Virus record (IMG/VR): IMGVR_UViG_3300017933_000003
Location: 1-64,000 of that record
Source: a virus
Taxonomy: Duplodnaviria; Caudoviricetes
Strand: one strand, 5' to 3'
DNA length: 64,000 nt
The position numbers and the translations under genes were made by a program. Below the pieces are notes generated by a model, which saw nothing but the letters and a program-made list of their open reading frames with translations, had not been told where the DNA came from and did not search any database. This document shows, piece after piece, positions 16,905 through 48,656 of the stretch. Positions within the stretch are counted from its first letter, which is position 1; every line of letters starts with the position of its first letter.

Positions 16905-16964
16905 AGCTGAATGCAGATGTGATTACATCGGAAAAATGCAAAATCTCATCAACTCTTGTCAGCT
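16905..16964 (+). ncRNA. Y-like stem-loop RNA, copy 1
   Basis: AGCTGA-ATGC-A-GATGTGAT-TACAT...ATCTCATC-AAC-TCTTG-TCAGCT. Confidence 0.6.
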
Positions 16965-16969
16965 TTTAT

Positions 16970-17064
16970 GCACCGATAGCTCAGTGTTAGAGCAGCTGGT
17001 CAATGTCCGAATAAAAACGGATAAACTTGCAGGTCGTGTGGTTCAACTCCCGCTCGGTGCCCCA
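16970..17064 (+). tRNA. tRNA-like gene with a hairpin inserted in the anticodon loop (identity undetermined)
   Basis: GCACCGA/TCGGTGC+C+CCA; D and T arms present; TGTCCG/CGGATA hairpin inside the anticodon loop. Confidence 0.7.
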
Positions 17065-17104
17065 CTTATGGCTTGATTCATGTAAAAGTGAATTGTGCCA
17101 CCAC

Positions 17105-17162
17105 ACCGAATGCCAGTAGGATTACATACCATAAAAAACAAATCTTACTAACTATTGTCGGT
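17105..17162 (+). ncRNA. Y-like stem-loop RNA, copy 2
   Basis: ACCGA-ATGC-C-AGTAGGAT-TACAT...ATCTTACT-AAC-TATTG-TCGGT. Confidence 0.55.
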
Positions 17163-17164
17163 AT

Positions 17165-17250
17165 GGAGTAGACGAGTCATCGGTAGACTCACCAGTCTGT
17201 AAAACTGGCGCCTTTGTGCACTGTGGGTTCGAATCCCTCCTGCTCCACCA
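17165..17250 (+). tRNA. tRNA-Tyr(GUA)
   Basis: cloverleaf; CCAGT-CTGTAAA-ACTGG; long variable arm; CCA. Confidence 0.92.
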
Positions 17251-17298
17251 TCCAGTTCTAAACTGGTTTGTTCGATGACAACTTAATAACTTTTCGTT

Positions 17299-17420
17299 CG
17301 GCGATTAGTACAGTCTGGTAGTACGCTTGTTTTGGCTTGTTAATCATAAATAGTGATGGAATATTCGCTACTTATGACAAGTACAAGAGGTCAGAGGTTC
17401 GAATCCTCTATCGCCGACCA
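17299..17420 (+). tRNA. tRNA-Pro(UGG) with a 45-nt hairpin insertion 3' of the anticodon
   Basis: CGGCGAT/ATCGCCG+ACCA; CTTGT-TTTGG-[17336-17380]-GT-ACAAG. Confidence 0.8.
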
Positions 17421-17559
17421 ACTAGTTTAGCTTCTTTATAGTTTACCTATAAACGTGAGATTACTGAACCTCACCACTTTGTGATGCTTAGCATGATAAA
17501 AGCCAAATTATAATTGTGGTACTGGTCAACACGCCAGTGAGCTGAATGAATGTGTTAAT

Positions 17560-17634
17560 CAGAGTGTGGTGTAAGGATAGCATGAGCCGCTTGGAACGGT
17601 TCGGAATTCCGTTTGACTCGGATCACTCTGACCA
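17560..17634 (+). tRNA. tRNA-Pro(UGG)
   Basis: CAGAGTG/CACTCTG; AGCCG-CTTGGAA-CGGTT; CCA. Confidence 0.85.
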
Positions 17635-17921
17635 CTCTATTTCGAAAAGGTACGTAGTAATTAAGTTTACCGGGGTAGAGCGTTTGCTAAGTATCAATTT
17701 ATGCAAGTTAGTAAACTTGTGGTGTAGTTCCATTTCTACTCCCTAATATGCAATGGACCAATTAGAGGCTGAACTCTAATAGCGTAATCGGATGCGCTTG
17801 ATATTCCGATTGGCGGCGGGAAGATAGTATAATAGCTATCCCTCCTGAGATTGTTAATTGCTCATTAACTAATTAACTTGCAGCCCAGAGCTTCGAGGCG
17901 CAGAATATCGAAGCTGCTTAT

Positions 17922-17998
17922 TCCTGCTTAGCTCAGTGTTAGAGCATCATCCGTTATGGGGTGAAGGTCGGTCGGTTCAATTCCACCAGTGGGAGCCA
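17922..17998 (+). tRNA. Asn-like tRNA with an aberrant 8-nt anticodon loop
   Basis: TCCTGCT/AGTGGGA+G+CCA; TCATC-CGTTATGG-GGTGA. Confidence 0.6.
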
Positions 17999-18001
17999 TA
18001 T

Positions 18002-18121
18002 GTTTCAATAGCTTAAGAGTTAAGTAGGCAAGATGATTATTCGCGCGAAACAAGTCTTGCCGAAGGTAGAGCGCCCTTATTCAATAGGGAGATGGAGGTT
18101 CGAATCCTTCTTGAGACACCA
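18002..18121 (+). tRNA. tRNA with a hairpin inserted in the D loop; best-fit anticodon UCA (possible opal suppressor)
   Basis: GTTTCAA/TTGAGAC+ACCA; GGCAAGA/TCTTGCC hairpin within the D loop; CCCTT-ATTCAAT-AGGGA. Confidence 0.65.
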
Positions 18122-18199
18122 GGAAACAAATGCCCGAAAGGGATTACATTTTTATTAGTAAAGCGACATGTTTTCCGAATCGATGATATATGTCATAGT

Positions 18200-18745
18200 A
18201 TGAGCACGAAGAAATGCACTCAATGCGGTATTGAAAAAGAATTTTCGGAATTTAGCCCGAAAGGTAATGGTAAATACGCCAGTCGATGTAAAATTTGTAT
18301 CGCCGCTAATAAACGCGTAAAATATGTTAGGCACCCAGGGGCGACCCGTCCTCCTGTTTTAGAAGGAGATACTAAGCGGTGTCGAATCTGTTTAGAAGTG
18401 AAAGATATAAGTGAGTTTTATTCTAATAATGGATGTGGCACCCATAGAAATGAATGCAAATCTTGCCTAATAGACAAAAGAAAAAAGAAATACGATCAAA
18501 CGCGCCAAATTTTATGGAACTATCTAAAAGAGCATCCGTGTGTAGATTGTAGTGAAGACGATCCGCTCGTTTTGGAATTTGACCATATTTCGAATAAATT
18601 TCAAGAAATTAGTGATCTAATAAGAAATGGATATAATGTAGAAACGATTTTCAAAGAGATTGAAAAGTGTGAAGTAAGATGTGCCAATTGTCATCGCAGA
18701 AAAACTGCGATTCAACTCAATTGGTATAAAGATGTGCAAAAGTAA
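18200..18745 (+). CDS. HNH homing endonuclease with zinc-ribbon repeats
   Basis: CVDC...LEFDHI...CEVRCANCH; start ATG 18200. Confidence 0.82.
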   Translation: MSTKKCTQCGIEKEFSEFSPKGNGKYASRCKICIAANKRVKYVRHPGATRPPVLEGDTKRCRICLEVKDISEFYSNNGCGTHRNECKSCLIDKRKKKYDQTRQILWNYLKEHPCVDCSEDDPLVLEFDHISNKFQEISDLIRNGYNVETIFKEIEKCEVRCANCHRRKTAIQLNWYKDVQK

Positions 18746-18750
18746 TTAAC

Positions 18751-18820
18751 GTCGTTGTAGCATAACCTTCAATGCAGGGGACGCCTAATATGTGTGGTGT
18801 AAATCCCACCAACGGCGCCA
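18751..18820 (+). tRNA. tRNA-like RNA lacking a normal anticodon arm
   Basis: GTCGTTG/CAACGGC+G+CCA; GCAT/ATGC D stem; GTGG-TGTAAAT-CCCAC T arm; only AGG-GGACG-CCT between them. Confidence 0.6.
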
Positions 18821-18821
18821 A

Positions 18822-18879
18822 AGATTCCGGTTCTGGTGAAAGTGCGCACAAGGTTGGTTCGATTCCAACACGGATATCT
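18822..18879 (+). ncRNA. minihelix-like element (acceptor-like stem plus T arm)
   Basis: AGATTCCG/CGGATATCT and GTTGG-TTCGATT-CCAAC. Confidence 0.4.
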
Positions 18880-18910
18880 AGGCAATATGATGCATAGTAT
18901 TGCCGCCTAT

Positions 18911-18985
18911 TCCTAAGTACCATAAGAGCAATGGACCTCGCTGTTAACGAGTTATATGTGGGTGCAACCCCTACCTTAGGAGCCA
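18911..18985 (+). tRNA. tRNA-Asn(GUU)
   Basis: TCCTAAG/CTTAGGA+GCCA; loop CTGTTAA; T-loop TGCAACC. Confidence 0.88.
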
Positions 18986-19687
18986 TTATATGAGCGATAA
19001 TGCTAATTGATTTTTTCTTGGCATAGATAGTTTATGTTCAGGGTAGTATAGCCAAGTTAATAATTTTTGGGCATTTGAATCATTAAATTGTAGTCGATAT
19101 TGATTGCAAGTCGCAATGACCTCTTTACCTCTAATGATTGAGTTTTTTGGACTCAATGTAATTATGTGGCAGCTAATATTACTTGGTATTAGTGATGATA
19201 TTTGTTCAATAAATATTTTTGAGGCAGAACACAAATATATTGTTCTTTTAGTATACCAGTATTCTTTATTGTTTTTAACTTTCTTATATGGGCACGAGGT
19301 AATTGATCCGTCCCCATCAATTAGTCCTCGGATAAAGTCTCGATGATATTTTTCTGGTATCGTTTTTTCTAATAATAAAGTTTTAGATTTGCGTGGAGTG
19401 CACCCATAAGATATGAGCCAACTCATAGCATCAATATCCGAAACTTCTATTGCGCAGCAATTAAGTCGGTCGTATAATGGCTTGTTAGGACAAATAATAT
19501 CTCGGATATTTTCAATCCAATCTCTATCTTTAGATATTATACTAAAGGAGACGTGATGCTTGGTATCGTTGATATTACCGTCCGTCATATACGCGCCCAA
19601 TAAATAAAATGAGACATCGTCTTCACGAAGAAACACATCAGAGTTAACGATATATTTTCTGACAGTAGCTTTTTTCATAAGTTCCAT
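18986..19687 (-). CDS. LAGLIDADG homing endonuclease
   Basis: YLLGAYMTDGNI and FIRGLIDGDGS; start placed at ATG 19687 with AGGAG RBS (track start 19708). Confidence 0.85.
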   Translation of the reverse strand: MELMKKATVRKYIVNSDVFLREDDVSFYLLGAYMTDGNINDTKHHVSFSIISKDRDWIENIRDIICPNKPLYDRLNCCAIEVSDIDAMSWLISYGCTPRKSKTLLLEKTIPEKYHRDFIRGLIDGDGSITSCPYKKVKNNKEYWYTKRTIYLCSASKIFIEQISSLIPSNISCHIITLSPKNSIIRGKEVIATCNQYRLQFNDSNAQKLLTWLYYPEHKLSMPRKNQLALSLI

Positions 19688-19766
19688 AGTGGCTCCTAAA
19701 ACATACACTCGAACTAATATATCAGGCTATGCATAGATTTTCTACCCCAAGAAAGGTAAAATTAAC

Positions 19767-19931
19767 ATGAGCGCACGTAATGATGCTAATTGGATTATCA
19801 GCGCCTCGACTGGTGTGCCAGATCCCCGCACTAGTCAAATTCTTAGGAAAGCTGGTGAAGCTATTTTAAATCTTGTTAGAGATTTGGAAGATGCTCAAAA
19901 TGAAATTGAGTCTCTCAAACGAAAAGTGTAA
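19767..19931 (+). CDS. small hypothetical protein (54 aa, not in the ORF track)
   Basis: MSARNDANWIISAS...EIESLKRKV*; AAGGT RBS. Confidence 0.5.
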   Translation: MSARNDANWIISASTGVPDPRTSQILRKAGEAILNLVRDLEDAQNEIESLKRKV

Positions 19932-19945
19932 GCTTAACTTAGGTT

Positions 19946-20118
19946 CCCAATAACCTTTTAATATTGGGTGGTGCCCCTCTAACGAGGGCGGGTTTCCAAT
20001 AACCTTAATGTTGGATGGTGGAGGCGAACAATCGTTCGCCCTTTTATTATCTCCTCTGCCCAATCTGATTGGGCTATCTTCGGATAGAAAACAGGCTGAA
20101 ATAATGCTTGAGAGGAGA
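19946..20118 (+). ncRNA. structured intergenic RNA with a repeated hairpin and a multi-branch junction
   Basis: four hairpins followed by a TCTCCTCT/AGAGGAGA-closed junction containing a UUCG loop. Confidence 0.5.
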
Positions 20119-20137
20119 CTATTTTTATGGTGGAACA

Positions 20138-20326
20138 ATGACTATCAGTGATGGAAGTCGTGAGTTAAAGCCTGGCAATGTGTTCTATGTGGGAACCGAT
20201 GAAGGAGAAACGGTTAAGTTTCAATTCCTCCGATATCTCAACGAAGAACAAACTAAAGCCGAAGTGGAGTTCCTGTCTGGTCCTAATAAGGGTTTGACTA
20301 CTATCATGGAAAAAGAGCTTAATTGA
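20138..20326 (+). CDS. hypothetical protein
   Basis: ATG 20138 with GGTGGA RBS. Confidence 0.55.
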   Translation: MTISDGSRELKPGNVFYVGTDEGETVKFQFLRYLNEEQTKAEVEFLSGPNKGLTTIMEKELN

Positions 20327-20333
20327 AAAATAT

Positions 20334-20405
20334 CTCCTCCTCGTATAACCAATACGCTGCCCTCTAAAAGCAGAAATCAAGGTTAAAATCCCTGGGAGGG
20401 GACCA
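20334..20405 (+). tRNA. tRNA with CUA anticodon (amber suppressor)
   Basis: CTCCTCC/GGAGGGG+ACCA; CTGCC-CTCTAAA-AGCAG; T-loop TTAAAAT. Confidence 0.7.
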
Positions 20406-20492
20406 GTCTGTGTATGGTGTAATTAGCACTCTAAATAAGGTTCGATTCCTCTTTCACGCGCAATTTGATGAAGTCGTGATATATAATATTAT

Positions 20493-21386
20493 ATGAAACC
20501 AGATTTCGAGACAAATTGTGGATTTTGTGGAAAACTTTTTATCGTCAAAAGAAAAAGTTATCTCGATCAAATTAGACGAAACAGTAATCATACTTTTTAT
20601 TGTAGCGACGAATGTCGTCGTGAAAAAGCTAAGACAGGACAATATATAAATTGTCTTATTTGTGGCAAAGAAGTTTATAAAAAACTAAATGAAATAGAAG
20701 CGGGCGCCCGCTTTTGTTCCTCATCTTGCGCAGCCCAATATAATAATCAAATCAGATTAACTACAAAAGGCAAACTTAAAAACTTAATTTGTGCCAAATG
20801 TGGTTGTGAGTATATAGGCTCAATTCATACTCCTACATCAACAGGGTTATGTGATTTGTGTGGTAGTGAGTCTAATTGTATTGATTGTGGTGCAATAATT
20901 CACGGGAGTTCTGGCATAAAATATTGTGATTTTTGTAGAACAAAAATAGTTTCTACTAAAATTAAAAACAGAATTAATAATGGAACTTTATTTTCTAAAG
21001 CAATTAAATGTGAATATATGTTCAATGATAAAAAGATAAGGTGCGATTCCAAATTAGAGTATGTCTGTCTGACTTATTTTCAATCCACATATGATGTGTT
21101 AGATATGAAAAGGGCGGATATGGTAATTGCATATATCTTTGATGAAAAAATATGTCATTACTATCCTGATTTTGAGATCTCTTTAAAAGATGGAACCAAA
21201 TATCTCATAGAATGTAAGGGCGTGGTGGGCAAAAAATTATCAGATAAGTGGCACGATTATAATAAAAAAGCAGTAGAGAAGAAAAAAGTTTTAGAAAAAT
21301 GGTGCCAAGAAAACGGATATATACCGTTTTGGTTCGATCAACAACGGCATAATAAGATATATAAAAACACGAAAATAGATGCGTAG
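20493..21386 (+). CDS. zinc-finger repeat protein with a TnsA-like PD-(D/E)xK endonuclease domain
   Basis: multiple CxxC/CSxxC; DSKLEY...YYPDF...LIECKG. Confidence 0.75.
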   Translation: MKPDFETNCGFCGKLFIVKRKSYLDQIRRNSNHTFYCSDECRREKAKTGQYINCLICGKEVYKKLNEIEAGARFCSSSCAAQYNNQIRLTTKGKLKNLICAKCGCEYIGSIHTPTSTGLCDLCGSESNCIDCGAIIHGSSGIKYCDFCRTKIVSTKIKNRINNGTLFSKAIKCEYMFNDKKIRCDSKLEYVCLTYFQSTYDVLDMKRADMVIAYIFDEKICHYYPDFEISLKDGTKYLIECKGVVGKKLSDKWHDYNKKAVEKKKVLEKWCQENGYIPFWFDQQRHNKIYKNTKIDA

Positions 21387-21452
21387 GACTTCAGCAAATC
21401 CATCACATTGTCAATGTGAACCAAGCGGGGGCAGCACCCGTCGCATCTGCCA
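21377..21452 (+). tRNA. tRNA-Asp(GUC)
   Basis: AGATGCG/CGCATCT+GCCA; TCACA-TTGTCAA-TGTGA; T-loop GGCAGCA; overlaps the upstream stop codon. Confidence 0.85.
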
Positions 21453-21458
21453 AATTAT

Positions 21459-21533
21459 CCGCCATAACGAGCCGGTAGCTCTGTCGGGTCTTATAAATCT
21501 GACGGTCAGGTTCAACTCCTGAATGGCGGACCA
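21459..21533 (+). tRNA. tRNA-Ile(UAU)
   Basis: CCGCCAT/ATGGCGG+ACCA; loop CTTATAA. Confidence 0.8.
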
Positions 21534-21598
21534 GACGAATGCTCGATTGGGATTACATTACTTCAATGAACAAACATCTCAGTCAAAATCTTGTCGTC
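21534..21598 (+). ncRNA. Y-like stem-loop RNA, copy 3
   Basis: GACGA-ATGC-TC-GATTGGGAT-TACAT...ATCTCAGTC-AAAA-TCTTG-TCGTC. Confidence 0.62.
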
Positions 21599-21601
21599 AA
21601 T

Positions 21602-21675
21602 GGCACTTTAGTTCAATGATAGAACAGACCGCTGAAGACGGTCGGACAACAGTTTGATTCTGTTAGGTGCCACCA
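21602..21675 (+). tRNA. tRNA-Phe(GAA)
   Basis: GGCACTT/AGGTGCC; GACCG-CTGAAGA-CGGTC; CCA. Confidence 0.9.
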
Positions 21676-21690
21676 TAAGGTAATATTAAG

Positions 21691-21912
21691 ATGGCGATCG
21701 ATATCGGAAGAATAGCATACCAAAAATATTTCCAATCAATGGATGGGATGACGGAAGATGTTCGCGGTCTTATAAGTTGGGAAGATTTATCTCGAAGAGA
21801 GAAGGATGCTTGGAGACACGCTGCCGTAGCAGTTGCCCAATATTTAGACGAAGAGAGAAAAAGATACGAATCAGAAAAAGACGAAGATAGCGCAGGTTTT
21901 GAAATAGGATAA
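21691..21912 (+). CDS. hypothetical protein
   Basis: 73-aa ORF between tRNAs. Confidence 0.55.
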   Translation: MAIDIGRIAYQKYFQSMDGMTEDVRGLISWEDLSRREKDAWRHAAVAVAQYLDEERKRYESEKDEDSAGFEIG

Positions 21913-21928
21913 TATCGCATAATATAAT

Positions 21929-22004
21929 CGACCATTCGTCCAACGGTCTAAGACGCGGCTCTGATAAAGCCGAGACACAAGTTCAACTCTTGTATGGTCG
22001 ACCA
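21929..22004 (+). tRNA. tRNA-Ile(GAU)
   Basis: CGACCAT/ATGGTCG; CGGCT-CTGATAA-AGCCG; CCA. Confidence 0.9.
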
Positions 22005-33977: not shown

Positions 33978-34339
33978 GTAGAGTAGCTCGGGTAATCGCT
34001 ACATAATATGTAGAGGAAAGTACGGGCTTTATAGGACAAGATGCTGGTTAACGACCAGATACAGTAATGTAATGGAAAGTGCAACAGAAAATACAACGCC
34101 AACTGATAAGACCTAGTCTTATAAAGGGCAAGTGTGAAAAGGCGAGGTAATAGCTCACCGCATTTACAGTGATGTAAATGGCAAGTGCAAACCCCATCTA
34201 AAGCAAGGCAAACAGTAAACGCTTGAGGGCTGTCCGTCCAATGTTTACGGGTTGCTGCTTGAGTCAATAAGTAATTATTGACCTAGATTAATGATTGCCT
34301 GATTTTATACACAGAACCCGTCTTATAGGGCTGCTCTAC
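33978..34339 (+). ncRNA. rnpB: RNase P RNA (bacterial type A-like)
   Basis: GAGGAAAGTACGGGC and ACAGAACCCGTCTTA P4 strands with a compensatory A-U pair; P1 GTAGAGTAGC/GCTGCTCTAC; AACAGAAA, GGTAA and AAACCC...AGCAAG conserved blocks. Confidence 0.92.
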
Positions 34340-34754
34340 TTTTTCTATAATTAATAATGGCTGTTACTGCAATTTTAGTTTCCTCAACTGTAAGAAAATT
34401 ATTTCTTATTGAATTGCATTGTTTACAACAAGGTAAAACGTTATCAACAGTATATCCTTTAGTATTATCTATTCTGTCTAATCCAGATCCATATTTAGAT
34501 TTTGCAGCAAAGAAGTCTTCACAATAATAACAAGGTTTAGAAATCAATTTTGCATATTCATCAATAGTAATTGCCCACTCTTTATGAATTTTAATGCCTC
34601 TTTGTTTAGATTTTGCAAAACGAGATCCAATTTTTTGTTGTTGTTTAGATGCAGCCTCTTTGACTTGTGGTGTTTGTTGGTAACATTTTTTACATATTGG
34701 ACCAGTATACCACTGATAGCTTTCGTGTGTTCCGCATTTAATGCACGCTTTCAT
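34323..34754 (-). CDS. HNH-type homing endonuclease
   Basis: CYYC...GLDRIDNTKGYTVDNVLPCCKQCN. Confidence 0.82.
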   Translation of the reverse strand: MKACIKCGTHESYQWYTGPICKKCYQQTPQVKEAASKQQQKIGSRFAKSKQRGIKIHKEWAITIDEYAKLISKPCYYCEDFFAAKSKYGSGLDRIDNTKGYTVDNVLPCCKQCNSIRNNFLTVEETKIAVTAIINYRKSRAAL

Positions 34755-34817: not shown

Positions 34818-35315
34818 ATGAAAAATAAAAATCCCATCACTAAAGGACCCATCACCAAGGGACTTGTAGTCGATTGGCAAGAAGCTCGCGAGAAAGCCGA
34901 TCAACTTGAAGATAAAATAACTGATCGACTTGATTACGTTATTCAAACTATTTTTGACGCCTTTGGCGTTATATTATACACCTGGTATTTTGGTGATGCA
35001 GCACAAGGAGAATTAGGTTCTCTCACTTGGGATGAACCAGAAATATTTATGGTTTGGGACGCTTCATCTCATGAAGAATTTATCATCCTCGACAGAGATG
35101 GGAACGAATTGATAATGGAAGGATCGGTACCTACCCGTTGGCTCTTCCAATCTTTCGAAGAAGAGCTAAGAGACGGCAAAAGAAAATATGAGGAGCAGGA
35201 GTCAGCTCGATTGGCGAAAGTTCTTTCTGTTAAGGAAGCTACTAAAAAGTTAGCTGCCAGTGCCAAAAAGAAGTTGACCAAAGAAGAGCTAGCAGCCATC
35301 AAGAAAACTTTATGA
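34818..35315 (+). CDS. hypothetical protein
   Basis: start placed at ATG 34818; ATGA overlap with the next gene. Confidence 0.6.
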   Translation: MKNKNPITKGPITKGLVVDWQEAREKADQLEDKITDRLDYVIQTIFDAFGVILYTWYFGDAAQGELGSLTWDEPEIFMVWDASSHEEFIILDRDGNELIMEGSVPTRWLFQSFEEELRDGKRKYEEQESARLAKVLSVKEATKKLAASAKKKLTKEELAAIKKTL

Positions 35316-35950
35316 AAATCAAACTAGCTTACCCTAAAATACCTGATACCTTGCATTGTCCACTTAAAAACTGTATAGCATTTGAGAAGATAGATGGAAC
35401 GTGTTTGCATTTTGTCTGGTCTCCTGAACATGGTTTCCACAGTTTTGGAACTCGAAGGGATCGATTCACTTATATTGATGCTAGCTTTGCTCAGTTTCAT
35501 CAGGATCATCCCGGGCTGAACGGGTTGGAACCAGCCTTCCAGAAAATCGAGCAGCCACTGTCAGATTTTCTGATCAAAAATTACTATAGCACCAAAGAAG
35601 TTATCATCTTCACCGAATTCCACGGACCTCACTCTTTTGCTGGCACCCACAACCTTAAAGAGGAAAAGAAGCTGACCCTCTTCGATGTGCAGGTAGATGG
35701 GGCGATGCTGGCGCCAGATGAATTTATAAAACTGTTTGAGCCCTTTGGCGTCCCCAAGGTGGTCTTTCGGGGAAAGTTCACTGGGCAGCTCTTTATGGAT
35801 GTGCGCAGCGGCAAGTATCCCGTTGCTGAAGGTGTGGTGGTTAAAGGCATGGTAGATGGTCAAGTCTATATGGCTAAGATAAAGACGAACGCTTATTTGG
35901 CAAAATTGAAGAATCAATTTAAGGATAATTGGCGAGAATATTGGGAATAA
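35312..35950 (+). CDS. ATP-dependent RNA ligase-like nucleotidyltransferase (Rnl2-like core)
   Basis: motif I EKIDG, III FTEFHG, IIIa LFDV, IV EGVVVK, V AKIK. Confidence 0.78.
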   Translation: MKIKLAYPKIPDTLHCPLKNCIAFEKIDGTCLHFVWSPEHGFHSFGTRRDRFTYIDASFAQFHQDHPGLNGLEPAFQKIEQPLSDFLIKNYYSTKEVIIFTEFHGPHSFAGTHNLKEEKKLTLFDVQVDGAMLAPDEFIKLFEPFGVPKVVFRGKFTGQLFMDVRSGKYPVAEGVVVKGMVDGQVYMAKIKTNAYLAKLKNQFKDNWREYWE

Positions 35951-43620: not shown

Positions 43621-43647
43621 AGTTAGGAATACTTCTACATCCTAATT

Positions 43648-44067
43648 ATGAATAGCAATATGCTACTTCTGTTGTGCGTCTTATTGTGGGGCACCACGAC
43701 CTTTCTGCAAAGGTTATCTGCGGACCACATGTCGCCTATTGTAATACAGACAGTAGTAGCGTTAGGGTTCGTTATATTTGTTCCAATTGCCTTTCATATG
43801 GAAGGTGGATTCTCCAATATTAGATGGTCTCCTTTAAGTATTGGTCTCAGTTTGACCGCAACGGCTTTATCTATTTGTGGTAACGTAGTCTTTTATTCTG
43901 TTCTAAAAGGCAGTAACCATACCGGTTCGATGGCTATGTTTCTGTGCCTTTATCCGATTTGGACATTAGTATTATCAGTTATATTTTTGCACGAAGCTTT
44001 TACTGTGTCCAAAATTATTGGCATCGTAGCCATGATAATAGGAACAATTTTCTTGAGTTTGGGGTAA
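43648..44067 (+). CDS. EamA/DMT-family transporter domain protein
   Basis: five hydrophobic helices; LWG...LYPIWTLVLSVIFLHE...KIIGI. Confidence 0.8.
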   Translation: MNSNMLLLLCVLLWGTTTFLQRLSADHMSPIVIQTVVALGFVIFVPIAFHMEGGFSNIRWSPLSIGLSLTATALSICGNVVFYSVLKGSNHTGSMAMFLCLYPIWTLVLSVIFLHEAFTVSKIIGIVAMIIGTIFLSLG

Positions 44068-44070
44068 TTT

Positions 44071-44574
44071 GTGCTAACTATTATCTTCTCCGAAGGACAG
44101 ACTAATAACCTGTTTCTCAAGTTTTTTCGACCCTTTGTCCATAAATATCGCTCTACTCATGTCTCTTTCGGCATCGAAGTAGGAGACAAGCCATACATTT
44201 TCCACATGTCTTATAAGGGTGCTATTAGGACGCCTCGTGACCGATTTTTAATTAAAAATGACATCGTGAAGGAGTATCGTATCCTGCCTGACCTTTCGGA
44301 AGAGTTGCAAGAGCACCTCAAATATTTGGGTAAAGCCAAGTATAATCATTTCTCTGCCATAGTGCATTTCGCTACTTTGCTCTTTCATCCACTCAAATTA
44401 TTACTGATGTTCTTTAAGATTAGAAATGGGTTTTATTGTAGTAATTTTGCTCGTCAATTAGATAAAAATAATAAAATTAAATCTTGGAGAAATATTAATA
44501 TACACTGGGCATCAGTCGATGAATTACAAGTAATTTGTGAAAGCAGCCCAGAATTCATGGATATTACTAACTAA
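44071..44574 (+). CDS. permuted papain-like (NlpC/P60, YiiX-like) protein
   Basis: STHVSF His precedes KYN...FYCSNF Cys. Confidence 0.55.
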   Translation: MLTIIFSEGQTNNLFLKFFRPFVHKYRSTHVSFGIEVGDKPYIFHMSYKGAIRTPRDRFLIKNDIVKEYRILPDLSEELQEHLKYLGKAKYNHFSAIVHFATLLFHPLKLLLMFFKIRNGFYCSNFARQLDKNNKIKSWRNINIHWASVDELQVICESSPEFMDITN

Positions 44575-45124
44575 TTGTAGTACATCTTTCTTTAATTAGC
44601 ACTTGTGCTACAAGATGCATTTCTTTGACTGATAGATTATTACTTCTAACGGAATTACAAAAACTTCCACATGGTTGTACATTATCAGGAGTGTATCCTT
44701 TAGTATTATCAATACGATCTAAATTACAACCAGCGATTGTTTTATCACACAATAAACCATTACAATAAATACAGGGCAAATCACATAGATCAGTAAATTG
44801 TTGGAGTGTTAACGACATTTCTCGCCGTATCTTTTTACAGCGTTTAATTAATGCGCTATATCGACCTTTGATAGATGTGTATCGTTTCTTATTTTGAGTA
44901 GTCATAGAAAACTTGTATGATTCAGTTTCTTTATAAATTTCGTGATATTTCTTTTTGCGCCTGCGTTGTTCGGGCTTCTTTTCGAATGCTCGATGGTATG
45001 CTTTGGCACATTCTTTACAGGCGCCCGCTCGTTTATTTTGATCATACCATAGTGGATTGAAATCTTCTATTGGAAGATCTTTCTTGCATTTAATACAAAT
45101 TTTTGTGATGTCCATGTTTATCAT
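44567..45124 (-). CDS. HNH-type homing endonuclease
   Basis: CIYC...NLDRIDNTKGYTPDNVQPCGSFCN. Confidence 0.82.
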   Translation of the reverse strand: MINMDITKICIKCKKDLPIEDFNPLWYDQNKRAGACKECAKAYHRAFEKKPEQRRRKKKYHEIYKETESYKFSMTTQNKKRYTSIKGRYSALIKRCKKIRREMSLTLQQFTDLCDLPCIYCNGLLCDKTIAGCNLDRIDNTKGYTPDNVQPCGSFCNSVRSNNLSVKEMHLVAQVLIKERCTTIS

Positions 45125-45181
45125 GCGTTATTATTAGCACAGTGGTTATTAATAATTGCGCTAACTCTTAACCGACTTATA

Positions 45182-45511
45182 TCACTGTTTTTTAGATTTT
45201 TTCTTGGGTTTCCCGCCCATATTTTTATAAACCGAATAAACGACCGCCCATGGTTCCTCATACTTCTTCCAGTATTTCTTGACCGCTTTCTTCGCCTTGT
45301 CCCAAGTCTTTTCGCTAGCAATAGAACCGGGTGGATTATGGGGTTTGAAGGTGGGAGCGGTGCCGTTCTCTTTGATTAGGCGGCGTTCTTCCTCCGTGAT
45401 CCATTTGATGTCTTTAGCCTTCTTATCCTCGGGAGCGTGTTCCTCGTAGTGATGTTCAGCTAATTTGATAGCGAATTGTTCTGCTAGTTCGGCTACTTTT
45501 GCAAAGCTCAT
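45182..45511 (-). CDS. hypothetical basic protein (ChaB-like C-terminus possible)
   Basis: WDKAKKAV...WAVVYSVYKNMGG. Confidence 0.5.
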   Translation of the reverse strand: MSFAKVAELAEQFAIKLAEHHYEEHAPEDKKAKDIKWITEEERRLIKENGTAPTFKPHNPPGSIASEKTWDKAKKAVKKYWKKYEEPWAVVYSVYKNMGGKPKKKSKKQ

Positions 45512-45534
45512 ACTTGTAATGTAAGGATAGTAAT

Positions 45535-46167
45535 ATGTTAGATAAACCCGCTATTATAGGCTGTGACGAAGTAGGTTATGGGTGTTTAGCTGGTCCTTTG
45601 GTGGTAGTAGGTATTAGGGCGCCCAAGGACTGGCACCTGGAGGGACTTAATGATTCCAAGAAATTATCAGCCAAGAAACGCGAAGCTATGGCTGACAAGA
45701 TGAATGACTTAATCGTGGATGGTTCTATTACCTGGGCATTAGCGGAGCGTTCCAATGTTGTTATCGATAAGTTTGGAGTGGCAGTAGCTCTCAAAGATGC
45801 TTATGTGGAGGTATTTCACCAACTCTATCAGTCGGACAGTTTAATAATTAGCGACGGAATCTTAAAATTTGACGAGCTGGGCGTGGATGGTTATGATATT
45901 CAGTCTCTAATAAAAGCCGACACCAAGATCCCGCAGGTGATGGCTGCCAGTATTTTGGCGAAGGTGTATCGTGATGGTAAGATGAAAATTTTACATGAAC
46001 TTCATCCTATGTACGGATGGAATAAAAATGTGGGGTATGGCTCTGCTACTCACTTGCAAGCTATTGAAAAGTATGGACCTTCTCCTTTACATAGGTTTTC
46101 TTACGCTCCGATGCGTAATATGAAACTGACTGATCCCCGCCAATGCTTACTACCTTTCAGTAAATGA
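45535..46167 (+). CDS. rnhB: ribonuclease HII
   Basis: GCDEVGYGCLAGP, LNDSKKLS, IKAD, AASILAKVYRD, YGWNKNVGYG and HRFSY motifs. Confidence 0.92.
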   Translation: MLDKPAIIGCDEVGYGCLAGPLVVVGIRAPKDWHLEGLNDSKKLSAKKREAMADKMNDLIVDGSITWALAERSNVVIDKFGVAVALKDAYVEVFHQLYQSDSLIISDGILKFDELGVDGYDIQSLIKADTKIPQVMAASILAKVYRDGKMKILHELHPMYGWNKNVGYGSATHLQAIEKYGPSPLHRFSYAPMRNMKLTDPRQCLLPFSK

Positions 46168-46262
46168 TGTTATATAGGAAATAACAATGTACGTCCCTAT
46201 CTGGCTAATTATTATCTTTTTGTTACTAGCTTTTTGCTAATATTTTCGTATGGAAATATTGT

Positions 46263-46334
46263 GGCGGTGCCTATTGGATAGGCGGTCGTTTCATACGCGA
46301 CCTATTGTGAGTTCGATTCTCACCTCCGCTACCA
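46263..46334 (+). tRNA. tRNA-Met/Ile2(CAU)
   Basis: GGTCGT-TTCATAC-GCGACC; canonical T arm; CCA. Confidence 0.78.
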
Positions 46335-46339
46335 ACCAT

Positions 46340-46413
46340 GGGCGGTTAGTTAAATGGTATAACATATCCTTTACACGGATAATTCAGGGGTTCGATTCCC
46401 TTACTGCCTACCA
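46340..46413 (+). tRNA. tRNA-Val(UAC)
   Basis: cloverleaf; loop TTTACAC; CCA. Confidence 0.9.
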
Positions 46414-46414
46414 G

Positions 46415-46519
46415 GTTTAATGATAGTTAGGGGAGCGCCCCGTTGTATAGCTGGGACTTGGTAAAGCTATCTGAACACGAAAGCCTGTCGCCGAGCCAAT
46501 TAAGTGCAGGTCATTAAAC
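46415..46519 (+). ncRNA. structured RNA between two tRNA-Val genes
   Basis: GTTTAATGA/TCATTAAAC closing stem with internal ATAGCT/AGCTAT and CCTG/CAGG helices. Confidence 0.5.
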
Positions 46520-46522
46520 TAT

Positions 46523-46596
46523 GGGCGATTAACTCAATGGTAGAGTGCTAGCATGACTCGCTAGTTACAGGGGTTCGATTCCCTTATCGCCTACCA
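46523..46596 (+). tRNA. tRNA-Val(GAC)
   Basis: cloverleaf; CTAGC-ATGACTC-GCTAG (unusual A32 and U37); CCA. Confidence 0.85.
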
Positions 46597-46736
46597 AATG
46601 AAATGGTATAAGTTTTGTGCCTTTTGTGATTTCATGGGCAACCAGCATCAATCTCATTGCGTTTTCTATAAAGCCATGAGAGCAGCCTTATGGTCTCCTA
46701 ATGGAGTCTATGTCGCCTTGGATGCAAGGAGAGCTA

Positions 46737-46952
46737 ATGAGCACGGTTGAAAACTACGATGGTCTCTGCGGCATCATTCATCTCGCTGCTTCTTCTAGCA
46801 AGCAGGTTAGGTGCAATTATGAGTTAGGTCATCATGGTCCTCACTCTTGGGCGAACAAGAAGGTAGCTTACCACATCTGTGGTTGTACCGAGGATAGATG
46901 GTACGAAGAGAAACAATTCATCGCTTCTGTTATGGCTAGTATCAAAAAGTAA
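46737..46952 (+). CDS. small hypothetical protein
   Basis: AGGAGAG RBS before ATG 46737; Cys/His-rich. Confidence 0.5.
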   Translation: MSTVENYDGLCGIIHLAASSSKQVRCNYELGHHGPHSWANKKVAYHICGCTEDRWYEEKQFIASVMASIKK

Positions 46953-46971
46953 TCCTTTATTGGAGATTTTA

Positions 46972-47313
46972 ATGACTAAAGAAGAGTTTTATGAACTGAT
47001 TAAGCAGTGGTCTCATGATACCTGCTTTTTGTCGTATCATGACACCCAGCATGAAGCTTATCTCAAAGCCCTACAGGCTGGGGAAGAAATTATTCCTTGG
47101 GCACTAGAGAGATTGAAGGACAGTATTGGTCATGATAGTGGGAACACCATGGATCGTGACAACTCTCCGTGGTTTACCGTCTGCCTATTGGGCGATCTGA
47201 GCAAAGGTGAATGTTTGGCTACTATGCCTCGCGAGTATGCCGGTAGGCTGGTCAAGATTAGAGAACACATCCTCCAGTGGGGCGAGTCTAAAGGCTTCAT
47301 TAAGCTATCATAA
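46972..47313 (+). CDS. hypothetical protein
   Basis: GGAG RBS before ATG 46972. Confidence 0.55.
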   Translation: MTKEEFYELIKQWSHDTCFLSYHDTQHEAYLKALQAGEEIIPWALERLKDSIGHDSGNTMDRDNSPWFTVCLLGDLSKGECLATMPREYAGRLVKIREHILQWGESKGFIKLS

Positions 47314-47319
47314 ACAAAA

Positions 47320-47345
47320 ATGCCAGATGATTGTTCACCTGGCAT
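47320..47345. terminator. hairpin between convergent genes
   Basis: ATGCCAG/CTGGCAT stem preceded by an A-run. Confidence 0.5.
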
Positions 47346-47392
47346 TCCCGTATTGATTGACTCCGAAACACTATATCACGCGTTTTCTGGAC

Positions 47393-48331
47393 TCACAAGA
47401 TTGACCATGTAAGTGCAAGAGCATTGAATGCCCAAGTATCATTGGCTGCTTGTCCCGTGGTAGCATCAATACCGCCGAACAGAATAGTTCTGCTAGATTG
47501 AGAATCATAAGCTAATTGAGCACCAATACGACCAGATGGTCCGGCGCCAATAGCCGCCTGAGTCCAAGTAGTTCCGTTGTAAACCCAAGTCTCTGGCAAG
47601 TAATTGTATTCGTTCTCACCGCCAAACATGACGTATAGACCACCGTGAGAGTCATAAGTCATAGCAGCATTGCTTCTAACAGAAGGAGAGGCGGTCGGAG
47701 TTTGCTGAGCCCACGTGGTTCCGTTAAAGATCCAGGTGTCATTGAATTGGCTGTTGGATCCTTGACCACCAAAGAGAACGATACCTAAAGGACCGGTAGA
47801 CATAGCATGATAGACACGAGCGTTGGGACCTGCTCCATTAGCTACGCTCACTTGAGACCAATTAAGACCACTGCCGTCCCAGATCCAGGTTTCATTTAAG
47901 TAAACGCCGTTACCAGCTCCACCAAAACCACCGAACATGACGGTGCCAATACCAGCAATAAAGCCAGCTTTAGCGCCGAAACGACCAAATGGGGTAACGG
48001 TTGGGGATCTCTTGGTCCAAGCCGTTCCGCTCCAAGTCCAGGTATCTTGAAAGATTTGACCAGAAGCACCACCCGCACCACCGTACAACATAACGTTATA
48101 ACCATCATATACGAAGGTCATTTGGGTGCGACCGGGTAGTGGTCCATTAGCATCAATTAGGGTAGTGCCAGTGTTAGTCCAGTCATTTACGTTTCCGTTA
48201 AACGTCCAGGTTTCATTTAGAAAGTTGGAGAAGGCAGGATAGTTGCCGGTATCCATTAGAACGAGATAGCCGTCAGCATCCGGACCAGCCATACCAGAGA
48301 AAGAGCAACGAAGTGGGGAGTGTGCAGTCAT
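47393..48331 (-). CDS. Kelch-repeat beta-propeller protein
   Basis: five repeats of (ML/VL)(Y/F)GG...(D/E)TW(x)(W/F/Y)(D/N/S)G...W. Confidence 0.85.
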   Translation of the reverse strand: MTAHSPLRCSFSGMAGPDADGYLVLMDTGNYPAFSNFLNETWTFNGNVNDWTNTGTTLIDANGPLPGRTQMTFVYDGYNVMLYGGAGGASGQIFQDTWTWSGTAWTKRSPTVTPFGRFGAKAGFIAGIGTVMFGGFGGAGNGVYLNETWIWDGSGLNWSQVSVANGAGPNARVYHAMSTGPLGIVLFGGQGSNSQFNDTWIFNGTTWAQQTPTASPSVRSNAAMTYDSHGGLYVMFGGENEYNYLPETWVYNGTTWTQAAIGAGPSGRIGAQLAYDSQSSRTILFGGIDATTGQAANDTWAFNALALTWSIL

Positions 48332-48465
48332 ATTATCCTCTTATTAAAAGTCAATCAAAACTTCAATACTTAAACCTATGGCATAAAAGTGATAGAATAT
48401 TTTCAAGGATTTTGTTAATAATTTCCTTTTTAATATCGGGGCATAAGCTGATATAAATGATACAC

Positions 48466-48540
48466 GCTTCTGTAATTCAGTGGTAGAATGCTGCGCTTCC
48501 AACGCAGACGTCGCTGGTTCGAATCCAGTCGGAAGCTCCA
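48466..48540 (+). tRNA. tRNA-Gly(UCC)
   Basis: canonical cloverleaf; U73; CCA. Confidence 0.93.
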
Positions 48541-48541
48541 G

Positions 48542-48656
48542 GACGAATGCAGATAGAATTACATTGGATAAAGTTGGGCGCAAGCCTGGCGAGATAGTTC
48601 AAGCCTATCAACAGTTCCGTGAGGAATTGAAAACAATTTTATCAATTCTTGTCGTC
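48542..48656 (+). ncRNA. Y-like RNA, copy 4 (long form with T-arm-like module)
   Basis: GACGA-ATGC-A-GATAGAAT-TACAT...ATTTTATC-AAT-TCTTG-TCGTC enclosing GGC-GCAA-GCC, GATAG-TTCAAGC-CTATC and AGTTCC-GTGA-GGAATT. Confidence 0.65.

What the first reader, a model, noticed from the sequence alone, without database searches (positions are those of the whole stretch)
16905..48656. Four-copy family of Y-RNA-like stem-loops wedged between tRNA genes in a Ro60-encoding phage
Seen in sequence: four elements (16905-16964, 17105-17162, 21534-21598, 48542-48656) share one architecture. It is an outer stem ending in GA, then AUGC, an inner stem ending in AU, then UACAU, a variable A-rich region, the inner stem partner, AAN, U(C/A)UUG and the outer stem partner starting UC. 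The stems differ in sequence but keep pairing (AGCTGA/TCAGCT, ACCGA/TCGGT, GACGA/TCGTC), which is covariation. Three copies begin 0-1 nt after a tRNA CCA end and all four end 2-5 nt before the next tRNA, so RNase P and 3'-end processing would release them. Established: Ro60/TROVE proteins bind Y RNAs, and the metazoan site is GGUCCGA paired with CUUGAC. From memory (to be verified), bacterial Y RNAs carry a GNCGAAN(0-1)G-type 5' strand; GACGAAUG fits it exactly and the 3' CUUGUC resembles CUUGAC. Inference: the phage makes several Ro60 partner RNAs of different sizes from its tRNA precursors. They could act as gates, tethers or decoys in an RNA quality-control or anti-defence system. Single Ro60/Y pairs are known in some phages; a dispersed multi-copy family inside tRNA arrays may be undescribed.
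Basis: partly seen in the sequence, partly recalled or inferred. Interest (0 to 1): 0.9.

Follow-up and report, generated by a model that had tools for sequence, protein, structure and literature searches.

The report
Phage Y-RNA family inside tRNA arrays
A huge uncultured phage that encodes the RNA-binding ring protein Ro60 also carries four small RNAs, wedged between its tRNA genes, that share the conserved Ro60-binding "handle" of bacterial Y RNAs. Related phages carry up to about fourteen such RNAs, so this is a many-RNA version of a known RNA-protein particle.

Summary
Four + strand elements (16905-16964, 17105-17162, 21534-21598, 48542-48656) share a two-helix handle with invariant loop bases. 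A covariance model built from three copies found the fourth at E=5e-6 and nothing else in the 79.6-kb contig.

The handle is the YrlA/YrlB-type Ro60-binding stem: GNCGAAN0-1G, then YUAY, with ...CUUGUC on the 3' side. Rfam YrlA matches only the stem (29 and 24 bits; gathering 69). In a relative, the same handle closes a full tRNA-like YrlA (64.9 bits) 13 nt after the Ro60 gene.

Across about 50 related IMG/VR contigs there are 162 hits. In the 44 Ro60-oriented loci every hit lies on the Ro60 strand. All 13 pairs covary. Many elements start right after a tRNA CCA and end 2-10 nt before the next tRNA.

An unbiased motif scan of 2.9 million viral contigs returned 22 contigs. At least 16 carry Ro60, and the Ro60-less ones are fragments.

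ORF 11117-12694 is a full-length Ro60. Ro60 binding, expression and processing remain untested.

I class this as a new variant of a known kind. Phage Y RNAs, two or more Y RNAs per species, and co-transcription with a tRNA are all published. This scan has reported similar handle-sharing RNA arrays beside Ro60-like genes on other phage DNA.

The parts
11117..12694 (+). Ro60 (TROVE + vWA) gene, the presumed protein partner
   Evidence: Pfam vWA_Ro60 6.9e-16 and TROVE 2.8e-8. It aligns over residues ~19-509 with phage phiLo Ro60 9KOP, D. radiodurans Rsr 2NVO and human Ro60.
16905..16964 (+). Y-like copy 1 (60 nt, short hairpin type)
   Evidence: R1 82.7 bits, R2 72.5 bits. Rfam YrlA 29 bits, E=1.6e-4, over the handle only. 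It starts directly after the CCA of the tRNA at 16822-16904; 5 nt separate it from the next tRNA.
17105..17162 (+). Y-like copy 2 (58 nt, short hairpin type)
   Evidence: R1 79.4 bits, R2 69 bits. It follows the ACCA-ended hairpin 17069-17104 and ends 2 nt before tRNA-Tyr at 17165. The 'short Y before tRNA-Tyr' position is kept in 11 loci.
21534..21598 (+). Y-like copy 3 (65 nt, short hairpin type, 9-bp inner stem)
   Evidence: It was held out of R1 and still found at 35.4 bits, E=5e-6; R2 52.5 bits. It has the exact GACGAAUG motif. It lies between tRNA-Ile(UAU) CCA at 21533 and tRNA-Phe at 21602. Weak Rfam YrlB hit of 22.3 bits.
48542..48656 (+). Y-like copy 4 (115 nt): the same handle closing three hairpins, namely GCAA-capped, T-arm-like (5 bp plus UUCAAGC loop) and GUGA-capped
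   Evidence: R1 73.3 bits, R2 64.9 bits. Rfam YrlA 24 bits. Apex fold z=-3.1. It aligns with a conserved class of handle-V-T-AS RNAs of about 101-108 nt in 11 relatives. It starts 1 nt after the tRNA-Gly CCA and ends 5 nt before the tRNA at 48662.
18124..18150 (+). 5' half of a fifth handle (outer strand, AAUGC, inner strand, AUUACAUU), apparently interrupted
   Evidence: R2 partial match. The sequence lies 2 nt after ...ACACCA and is followed by an HNH-type ORF at 18200-18745. No matching 3' half was found within 1 kb.
16822..16904 (+). tRNA with encoded CCA whose 3' end abuts copy 1
   Evidence: Rfam tRNA 54.4 bits; ARAGORN with introns allowed; sequence.
16970..17064 (+). tRNA with a ~30-nt insert in the anticodon region, 5 nt after copy 1
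   Evidence: Rfam tRNA 38.2 bits with a 30-nt insertion.
17069..17104 (+). Stable hairpin ending ACCA (acceptor-stem-like minihelix) directly upstream of copy 2
   Evidence: MFE -12.4 kcal/mol, z=-3.3.
17165..17250 (+). tRNA-Tyr 2 nt after copy 2
   Evidence: ARAGORN.
21459..21533 (+). tRNA-Ile(UAU) whose CCA abuts copy 3
   Evidence: ARAGORN; sequence.
21602..21675 (+). tRNA-Phe 3 nt after copy 3
   Evidence: ARAGORN and Rfam.
48466..48540 (+). tRNA-Gly whose CCA precedes copy 4 by 1 nt
   Evidence: ARAGORN and Rfam 67.4 bits.
48662..48733 (+). tRNA 5 nt after copy 4
   Evidence: Rfam tRNA 45.9 bits.
33980..34341 (+). Phage-encoded bacterial type A RNase P RNA. This enzyme would cut at the 5' end of each downstream tRNA and so make the 3' ends of the Y-like RNAs.
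   Evidence: Rfam RF00010 281 bits, full length. Its role here is inferred.

Best explanation
The four elements are phage-encoded Y RNAs, the small RNA partners of the phage's own Ro60.

Each has a constant handle. The handle consists of a 5-6 bp terminal stem, an internal loop with invariant A-U-G-C on the 5' side and U-N-G on the 3' side, an 8-9 bp stem with a conserved G.U pair, and then UACAU. This handle is homologous to the Ro60-binding stem of bacterial YrlA and YrlB.

The handle closes a variable apex. In copies 1-3 the apex is only an A-rich loop (YrlB/Yrn2-like hairpin type). In copy 4 it is a partial tRNA mimic with V, T-arm-like and acceptor-stem-like hairpins and no D arm.

The elements have no room for promoters of their own. 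They are most likely transcribed within polycistronic tRNA precursors. RNase P cleavage at the next tRNA would leave a 2-5 nt 3' tail, and the nuclease that frees the upstream tRNA's CCA end would make their 5' end.

Bound to Ro60, they would act as known Y RNAs do: they gate the ring's cavity and, through different apical modules, tether it to different partners such as host PNPase.

Shown here: structure conservation, homology of the handle, genomic coupling to Ro60 and to tRNA junctions. Inferred: transcription, processing, Ro60 binding and function.
For: 1. Family in the window: held-out copy 3 scores 35.4 bits against 11.3 for the best background hit. R2 gives 52-72 bits against 14.6.

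2. Handle matches YrlA: the Rfam YrlA alignment covers GAAUGC, YUAC and ACUCUUGUC, with the 54-nt tRNA-like core replaced. The motif definitions are in PMC4201824.

3. Anchor in a relative: L045 11603-11745 starts 13 nt after the Ro60 stop and has full T, AS and D arms. It scores 64.9 bits (E=8.5e-15) on Rfam YrlA and is also found by my handle-only models at 41.1 and 50.5 bits.

4. Selection on structure: in 97 distinct hits, 97.7% of cells are paired, 13 of 13 pairs show double changes, and the covariation score is 0.871 against 0.085 or less for slid controls. An independent MAFFT plus RNAalifold run on 36 short forms predicts the same two helices, with 11 of 12 pairs compensated.

5. Selection on unpaired bases: A7, U8, G9, C10, U20-A21-C22-A23-U24, U52 and G54 are 94-100% invariant over 145 distinct sequences. 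That pattern is typical of a protein-binding site.

6. Strand: all 117 R1 hits in the 44 Ro60-oriented loci are on the Ro60 strand.

7. Coupling to Ro60 without conditioning on it: a motif scan of IMG/VR gave 22 contigs. Six were already known Ro60 contigs, and 10 of 15 others also encode Ro60, including all three that are at least 90% complete. The Ro60-less ones are 6-63% fragments. Only 211 of 50,697 reference phage records match this Ro60.

8. tRNA junctions: 42 of 150 hits start -1 to 3 nt from an ARAGORN tRNA end, against 0.73 expected. 53 of 150 end 1-10 nt before the next tRNA. 35 of 40 such junctions read CCA. Positions are syntenic, e.g. before tRNA-Tyr in 11 loci.

9. The protein partner is a full-length Ro60.

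10. Precedents: phiLo Ro60 binds two phage Y-like RNAs and recruits host PNPase (PMC12135203). D. radiodurans Yrn2 is co-transcribed with tRNA-Asp.
Against: There is no expression, end-mapping or binding evidence.

Rfam scores are far below gathering (29 and 24 bits against 69 for YrlA; 22 against 97 for YrlB).

Copies 1-3 lack the tRNA-like domain that defines YrlA.

The copies lie 4.2-35.8 kb from Ro60, not beside it.

The strict GNCGAAN0-1G string is present in only 32 of 145 family members, because three of its positions covary within the outer stem.

Nine of 37 non-redundant Ro60 loci gave no hit at E<=1e-3.

The large alignments were fitted to the model, which inflates pair counts somewhat.

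Co-occurrence with Ro60 could partly reflect shared ancestry within one phage lineage.
Confidence: 0.75

Rival explanations
1. The elements are cis-acting parts of the tRNA precursor and are never released as free RNAs. The handle would sit as the 3' trailer of one tRNA and the 5' leader of the next, recruiting Ro60 (or another factor) to the polycistronic transcript. There it would chaperone, check or time the maturation of the phage's many unusual tRNAs.
For: The handle starts 0-3 nt after CCA in 35 of 40 junctions and ends 2-10 nt before the next tRNA. That leaves almost no spacer for independent processing signals. Several neighbouring tRNAs carry long inserts. Ro60 is known to bind misfolded structured RNAs through their 3' ends (background in PMC4201824).
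Against: In other lineages the same handles form tandem arrays with no tRNAs between them, directly after Ro60. Examples are L026 (six copies), L038, L025 and L045. tRNA flanks are therefore not required. Known Y RNAs are stable free RNAs. RNase P cutting at the next tRNA would in any case detach the element on its 3' side.
Confidence: 0.1
2. The elements are tRNA-operon punctuation signals, that is structured spacers that guide or block processing nucleases. They would work without Ro60, and the resemblance to the Y RNA stem and the co-occurrence with Ro60 would come from shared descent within one phage lineage.
For: They sit tightly between tRNAs and keep syntenic positions. No binding data exist. 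All evidence for a link to Ro60 is genomic.
Against: The invariant unpaired bases match the published Ro60-recognition motif of YrlA and YrlB. The same handle closes a near-canonical YrlA beside Ro60 in L045. Handle arrays exist without tRNAs (L026). The motif tracks Ro60 across contigs whose Ro60 is only 43-56% identical. Most tRNA-tRNA spacers in the window lack the element.
Confidence: 0.1
3. The elements are a mobile or recombination-prone repeat, for example a homing-endonuclease target or a miniature mobile element, that has spread through the tRNA arrays.
For: The family is multi-copy and dispersed over 32 kb. One half-copy at 18124 abuts an HNH endonuclease gene. L017 has near-identical tandem copies at a 142-nt period.
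Against: The copies differ in stem sequence with compensatory changes rather than being near-identical. They are strictly strand-specific. Orthologous positions are kept across relatives whose Ro60 is 64-77% identical. There are no terminal repeats or target duplications in the flanks.
Confidence: 0.03

Closest known systems
YrlA (Rfam RF02553; Chen et al. 2014, PMC4201824), the Rsr/Ro60-bound tRNA-mimicking Y RNA of bacteria and mycobacteriophages
   Same: It has a terminal stem carrying GNCGAAN0-1G, an internal loop with AUGC, a second stem, YUAY at the start of the apical domain, and a 3' strand ...ACUUGUC. It is encoded in genomes with Ro60. Copy 4 and many relatives carry a T-arm-like hairpin in the same place and order (V, T, AS).
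   Different: Copies 1-3 have no tRNA-like domain at all, and copy 4 lacks the D arm. Scores are 24-29 bits against a gathering score of 69. The copies lie 4-36 kb from Ro60, inside tRNA arrays and abutting CCA ends. The window has four copies (relatives up to about 14 per locus), whereas YrlA occurs as one or two.
YrlB (Salmonella, M. smegmatis; Rfam RF02565) and D. radiodurans Yrn2, the hairpin-type second Y RNAs
   Same: They are short Ro60-bound hairpins with the same 5' motif and no full tRNA-like module. They coexist with a tRNA-like Y RNA. Yrn2 is co-transcribed with tRNA-Asp and Yrn1.
   Different: There is no sequence-level membership (22 bits against a gathering score of 97). The loop here is A-rich, whereas the published hairpins have pyrimidine-rich loops. 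The copy number is much higher, and the CCA-abutting placement is regular.
Thermus phage phiLo Ro60 with Yrl1/Yrl2 (PMC12135203, 2025; PDB 9KOP, 9L5Y)
   Same: A phage-encoded Ro60 with more than one phage-encoded Y-like RNA containing the CGAA motif in an internal loop between two stems. It was shown to bind and to assemble with host PNPase. The window's Ro60 aligns end to end with it.
   Different: phiLo has two RNAs directly upstream of Ro60 and no tRNA array context. The window's family is larger, dispersed and modular.
Phage T4 stable RNAs species 1 and 2 (rnaC, rnaD) in the tRNA gene cluster (from my own knowledge, not checked here)
   Same: They are small non-tRNA stable RNAs encoded between phage tRNA genes and released from the same precursors by tRNA-processing enzymes.
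   Different: T4 has no Ro60 and no Y-RNA handle. Their function is still unknown, and I did not compare sequences.

Membership tests
Y RNA in the broad sense (Ro60-bound small RNA) | The 5' and 3' ends pair into a stem that carries the conserved Ro60-recognition sequence | tested here: met
   The two-helix handle carries (G)NCGAAUG on its 5' strand. All 13 pairs covary across 97 distinct relatives.
Y RNA in the broad sense (Ro60-bound small RNA) | A Ro60 ortholog is encoded in the same genome | tested here: met
   ORF 11117-12694 is a full-length Ro60. An unbiased motif scan returns mostly Ro60-bearing contigs.
Y RNA in the broad sense (Ro60-bound small RNA) | Physical binding to Ro60 and Ro60-dependent stability | not testable with these tools
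   This needs EMSA, RIP or a Northern blot in a Ro60 mutant. No RNA run holds this DNA.
YrlA (RF02553) | GNCGAAN0-1G near the 5' end | tested here: met
   Copies 3 and 4 read GACGAAUG exactly. Copy 2 reads ACCGAAUG and copy 1 reads GCUGAAUG; each departs at one base that pairs in the outer stem.
YrlA (RF02553) | Conserved YUAY at the start of the apical (V) region | tested here: met
   UUAC is present in all four copies. U-A-C is invariant in 145 family members.
YrlA (RF02553) | tRNA-like domain with T arm, acceptor-like stem and D arm | tested here: not met
   Copies 1-3 have only a 14-22 nt loop. Copy 4 has a T-arm-like hairpin and two capped hairpins but no D arm. Full T-AS-D versions occur in the relatives L045, L043 and L025.
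YrlA (RF02553) | Score at or above the Rfam gathering threshold (69 bits) | tested here: not met
   29.0 bits for copy 1 and 24.0 bits for copy 4. No YrlA hit reaches gathering in 13 related loci. The best relative scores 64.9 bits.
YrlA (RF02553) | Encoded within about 4 kb of the Ro60 gene (search criterion of Chen et al. 2014) | tested here: not met
   Distances from the Ro60 stop are 4.2, 4.4, 8.8 and 35.8 kb.
YrlB (RF02565) | Score at or above the gathering threshold (97 bits) | tested here: not met
   Only copy 3 gives a hit, at 22.3 bits and E=0.55. The likeness lies in architecture, not sequence.
tRNA | Cloverleaf recognised by ARAGORN or Rfam RF00005 | tested here: not met
   No tRNA call overlaps any of the four intervals.

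The most novel reading that the evidence does not exclude
The handle may be a portable Ro60 docking tag that huge phages have copied onto many different RNA modules and wired directly into their tRNA precursors. The trailer of one tRNA and the leader of the next would then be a Y RNA. Ro60, with a tethered host exonuclease such as PNPase, would be loaded co-transcriptionally onto the pre-tRNA and would decide whether each phage tRNA is matured or destroyed. On this reading the phage carries a built-in tRNA quality-control or repair checkpoint, not a set of free regulatory RNAs.
Probability: 0.15. Interest if true: 0.8.

Novelty: new variant of a known kind. Interest (0 to 1): 0.55.

Why it matters
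Ro60/Y-RNA particles are conserved from bacteria to humans, and Ro60 is a major human autoantigen. What the Y RNAs do, beyond gating the ring and tethering it to PNPase, is still poorly understood.

A phage lineage that keeps one constant Ro60 handle and attaches it to 4-14 different apical modules per genome is a natural experiment in Y RNA modularity. The modules range from a bare loop to a T-arm minihelix, a full tRNA mimic and structured domains of 200-275 nt. Each module is a candidate adaptor for a different partner.

The family also shows that current annotation misses these RNAs. None reaches the Rfam threshold. The 2014 survey discarded candidates overlapping tandem tRNAs and looked only within 4 kb of Ro60. 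In the cultured Myxococcus phage Mx1, one element is annotated as a 40-aa hypothetical protein.

Mx1 offers a tractable system in which to test binding, processing and function.

Tried and rejected
- RNA evidence: no RNA holder was listed among the public runs. All 14 holders are wetland DNA metagenomes. I therefore laid no reads, and nothing can be said about expression.

- Megablast of 10900-18000 against reference phages gave no match.

- The sigma-70 promoter scan around the elements was no better than shuffles (23 against 19.9; 7 against 8.6). It gives no information on transcription units. One terminator-like hairpin follows tRNA-Tyr at 17252-17266.

- Rfam at gathering thresholds on 13 related loci gave no YrlA or YrlB hit.

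- I found no 3' half for the partial copy at 18124 within 1 kb.

- TROVE-less relatives: eight contigs related through the phage EF-Ts gene (52-70% identity, about 850 kb in total) hold neither Ro60 nor any handle hit. They are 7-47% fragments, so this shows only that the model gives no false positives there. It does not show that Ro60-less relatives lack the RNAs.

- Whole-record scans of five 360-480 kb relatives placed all 17 hits in or just beyond the fetched Ro60/tRNA loci. Only 150 first-look candidates per genome were scored, so absence elsewhere is not proven.

- Supplementary tables of Chen et al. 2014 are not held. The 2020 Annual Review and the paper I tried under PMC5062991 (which I believed to be Burroughs & Aravind 2016) are not held either. 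I could not check how many Y RNAs per phage those papers list.

- A mobile-element reading and a plain tRNA reading were considered and rejected (see the rival explanations and the membership test).

Full report
**What is in the sequence.**
Each has a 5-6 bp outer stem whose 5' strand ends GA. The loop bases AUGC(N) follow. Then comes an 8-9 bp inner stem ending (G/A)AU, then UACAU, then a variable apex, then the inner-stem partner. On the 3' side the loop reads AANU(C/A)UUG, followed by the outer partner starting UC.

Copies 1-3 are 58-65 nt with an A-rich apical loop. Copy 4 is 115 nt. Its apex folds into three hairpins: a 7-bp stem capped GCAA, a 5-bp stem with a 7-nt UUCAAGC loop (T-arm-like), and a 7-bp stem capped GUGA.

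The junctions are as stated. Copies 1, 3 and 4 begin 0-1 nt after an encoded tRNA CCA. The four end 5, 2, 3 and 5 nt before the next tRNA.

I make two corrections:
- Copy 2 follows a stable 32-nt hairpin that ends ACCA (17069-17104; z=-3.3), not a canonical tRNA.
- A fifth, partial copy exists. It is a clean 5' half at 18124-18150 that runs into an HNH endonuclease ORF. I found no 3' half.

**Is it more than chance?**
A covariance model built from copies 1, 2 and 4 (R1) found the held-out copy 3 at 35.4 bits (E=5e-6) in a filter-free scan of both strands of the window. The next best hit scored 11.3 bits. A broader model (R2, 57 sequences) gives 52-72 bits for the four and 14.6 for the next hit. 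It finds nothing in the last 15.6 kb of the contig.

The record is an IMG/VR virus contig of 79,652 bp with 18% estimated completeness. The genome is therefore probably about 440 kb, and more copies may lie outside the contig.

**What the handle is.**
Rfam's YrlA model aligns to copies 1 and 4 end to end at 29 and 24 bits (E=1.6e-4 and 2.3e-3 in short searches). It matches only the stem: GAAUGC, then UAC, then CUUGUC. Its 54-position tRNA-like core is replaced. These scores are well below the gathering score of 69.

Chen et al. [quoted passage not shown] Copies 3 and 4 read GACGAAUG, and all four read UUAC.

The decisive link comes from a relative. In locus L045 an RNA starts 13 nt after the Ro60 stop codon and has T arm, acceptor-like stem and D arm in the YrlA order. 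It scores 64.9 bits (E=8.5e-15) on Rfam YrlA. My handle-only models find the same RNA at 41.1 and 50.5 bits. The handle in the window is therefore the YrlA-type Ro60 stem.

**The family in relatives.**
The Ro60 protein has 44 related loci in IMG/VR at 39-77% identity, many on contigs of 250-480 kb. R1 gave 117 hits in them, every one on the Ro60 strand. R2 gave 162 hits at E<=1e-3 over 54 sources totalling 926 kb. The 150 best-aligned hits give up to nine per locus, and one 14-kb stretch (L060) holds about fourteen at E<=0.01.

Lengths run from 56 to 275 nt. I see these classes:
- bare hairpins;
- a conserved handle-V-T-AS class of about 101-108 nt, to which copy 4 belongs;
- full tRNA mimics;
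- long structured forms.

On the model-fitted alignment of 97 distinct sequences, 97.7% of cells pair. All 13 pairs show changes on both sides. The covariation score is 0.871 against 0.085 or less when partners are slid.

An independent MAFFT plus RNAalifold run on 36 short forms predicts the same two helices, with 11 of 12 pairs compensated.

The unpaired bases are under stronger constraint than the stems. A7-U8-G9-C10, U20-A21-C22-A23-U24, U52 and G54 are 94-100% invariant in 145 distinct sequences. One inner-stem pair is predominantly G.U: 75 of 97 distinct sequences and 12 of 12 in copy 4's length class. This is what a protein-binding surface looks like.

**Link to tRNA genes.**
Of the 150 best hits, 42 start -1 to 3 nt from an ARAGORN tRNA 3' end, against 0.73 expected for random placement. 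53 end 1-10 nt before the next tRNA. ARAGORN misses several of these odd phage tRNAs, so the true fractions are higher. 35 of 40 such junctions read CCA, and the 3' spacers are short and AU-rich.

Positions are syntenic. A short form sits just before tRNA-Tyr in 11 loci, including the window's copy 2. The 106-108 nt form sits before tRNA-Pro in six loci.

Other lineages have tandem handle arrays directly after Ro60 with no tRNAs between them, for example six copies in L026. The element therefore does not depend on tRNA flanks.

**Link to Ro60.**
ORF 11117-12694 carries the Ro60 vWA and TROVE domains. It aligns over almost its whole length with phage phiLo Ro60, D. radiodurans Rsr and human Ro60.

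To avoid conditioning on Ro60, I scanned all 2.9 million IMG/VR contigs for a 20-base handle pattern. That returned 23 stretches on 22 contigs. Six are Ro60 contigs already found. Of 15 others that could be searched, 10 encode Ro60, including all three that are at least 90% complete. The five without Ro60 are 6-63% fragments, and one of them is not a real handle by R2.

For scale, only 211 of 50,697 reference phage records match this Ro60.

Eight related fragments found through the phage EF-Ts gene hold neither Ro60 nor any handle hit. This shows specificity of the model but, because they are fragments, not absence.

**Cultured relative.**
The closest Ro60 in reference phages is in Myxococcus phage Mx1 at 51% identity. 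Mx1 has two handle RNAs in its tRNA array, about 11 kb upstream of Ro60. One has a T arm and a D-like arm (47 bits). The other starts 4 nt after tRNA-Ile and is overlapped by an annotated 40-aa hypothetical CDS.

**How it most likely works.**
Shown: a conserved structured RNA family, homology of its handle to the YrlA/YrlB Ro60 stem, and genomic coupling both to Ro60 and to tRNA junctions.

Inferred, step by step:
- The RNAs are transcribed within tRNA precursors.
- RNase P cutting at the next tRNA makes their 3' end. The phage encodes its own RNase P RNA at 33980-34341 (281 bits).
- The nuclease that frees the upstream CCA makes their 5' end.
- They bind the phage Ro60 through the handle.
- As in Deinococcus, Salmonella and phage phiLo, they gate the ring and tether it to partners such as host PNPase, with different apical modules selecting different partners.

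An RNA ligase gene lies 1 kb from the RNase P RNA. This fits an RNA repair or turnover setting, but it is context only.

**What is known and what is new.**
Already published:
- Ro60 with Y RNAs in 22 phages (Chen 2014);
- at least two Y RNAs per bacterial species, including hairpin forms without a tRNA-like domain;
- co-transcription of Yrn2 with tRNA-Asp in D. radiodurans;
- two Y-like RNAs bound by phiLo Ro60.

The jumbo-phage survey of Iyer et al. 2021 mentions TROVE with 'a tRNA-like partner' only.

In five full-text searches I found no description of large handle-sharing families, of systematic CCA-abutting placement inside tRNA arrays, or of the range of modules. The 2014 search discarded hits overlapping tandem tRNAs and looked only within 4 kb of Ro60, which would have hidden this family.

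I therefore class it as a new variant of a known kind. Earlier notes of this scan report similar handle-sharing RNA arrays beside Ro60-like genes in other phages. I did not test those.

**Limits.**
No RNA data exist for this DNA. Binding and processing are untested. The large alignments are model-fitted. The whole-genome RNA scans scored only part of their candidates. No complete Ro60-less close relative was available as a control.

Noticed in passing
window 33980-34341 (+): A complete bacterial type A RNase P RNA (Rfam 281 bits, full model) is encoded by the phage, with an RNA ligase family gene (PF09414) at 35312-35950 about 1 kb downstream.
   Followed up: partly
window 16970-17064, 17299-17417 and 16822-16904 (+): Several phage tRNAs carry long inserts in or near the anticodon arm (about 30 nt, about 45 nt and about 9 nt). 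The Rfam tRNA model spans them only by inserting these stretches, and ARAGORN misses two of them without its intron option.
   Followed up: no
window 17069-17104 (+): A stable 32-nt hairpin ends in ACCA (z=-3.3) and sits between a tRNA and Y-like copy 2. It looks like an acceptor-stem minihelix and may supply a tRNA-like 3' end for processing.
   Followed up: partly
window 18050-18910 (+): A tRNA-like sequence ending ACACCA (18050-18122) is followed by the half handle, then an HNH-type ORF (18200-18745; CxxC pairs and a ...CANCHRRK motif, but no Pfam hit), then further T-arm-like hairpins (18788-18877). It may be an RNA gene split by a homing endonuclease.
   Followed up: partly
window 48642-49409 (-): A 255-aa minus-strand ORF overlaps the 3' end of copy 4 and the whole tRNA at 48662-48733. 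It has only a sub-threshold zinc-finger match, so it is probably spurious or over-extended.
   Followed up: no
window 50877-51788 (+), 45535-46167 (+), 47393-48331 (-): The phage encodes elongation factor Ts (166 bits), RNase HII and a Kelch-repeat beta-propeller protein.
   Followed up: no
L035 12236-12368 (and its duplicate L036): Here the Y-RNA handle encloses a sequence that both ARAGORN (tRNA-Ile GAU) and Rfam (57.9 bits) call an ordinary tRNA. It is a handle-closed complete tRNA rather than a permuted mimic.
   Followed up: no
L017 14618-15100: Four short handle RNAs lie in tandem at a 142-nt period, and three have identical scores. This looks like a recent local amplification.
   Followed up: no
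L045 11604-12324 and L043 4987-5360: Phage tmRNA genes (66-69 bits) lie in the same RNA gene clusters. In L045 the tmRNA directly follows three handle RNAs after Ro60.
   Followed up: no
L072 608-709 (Myxococcus phage Mx1 OR576727.2, 45522-45623): The annotated 40-aa hypothetical protein WNM70101.1 overlaps a handle RNA (31 bits) that starts 4 nt after tRNA-Ile. The CDS is probably a mis-annotation.
   Followed up: partly
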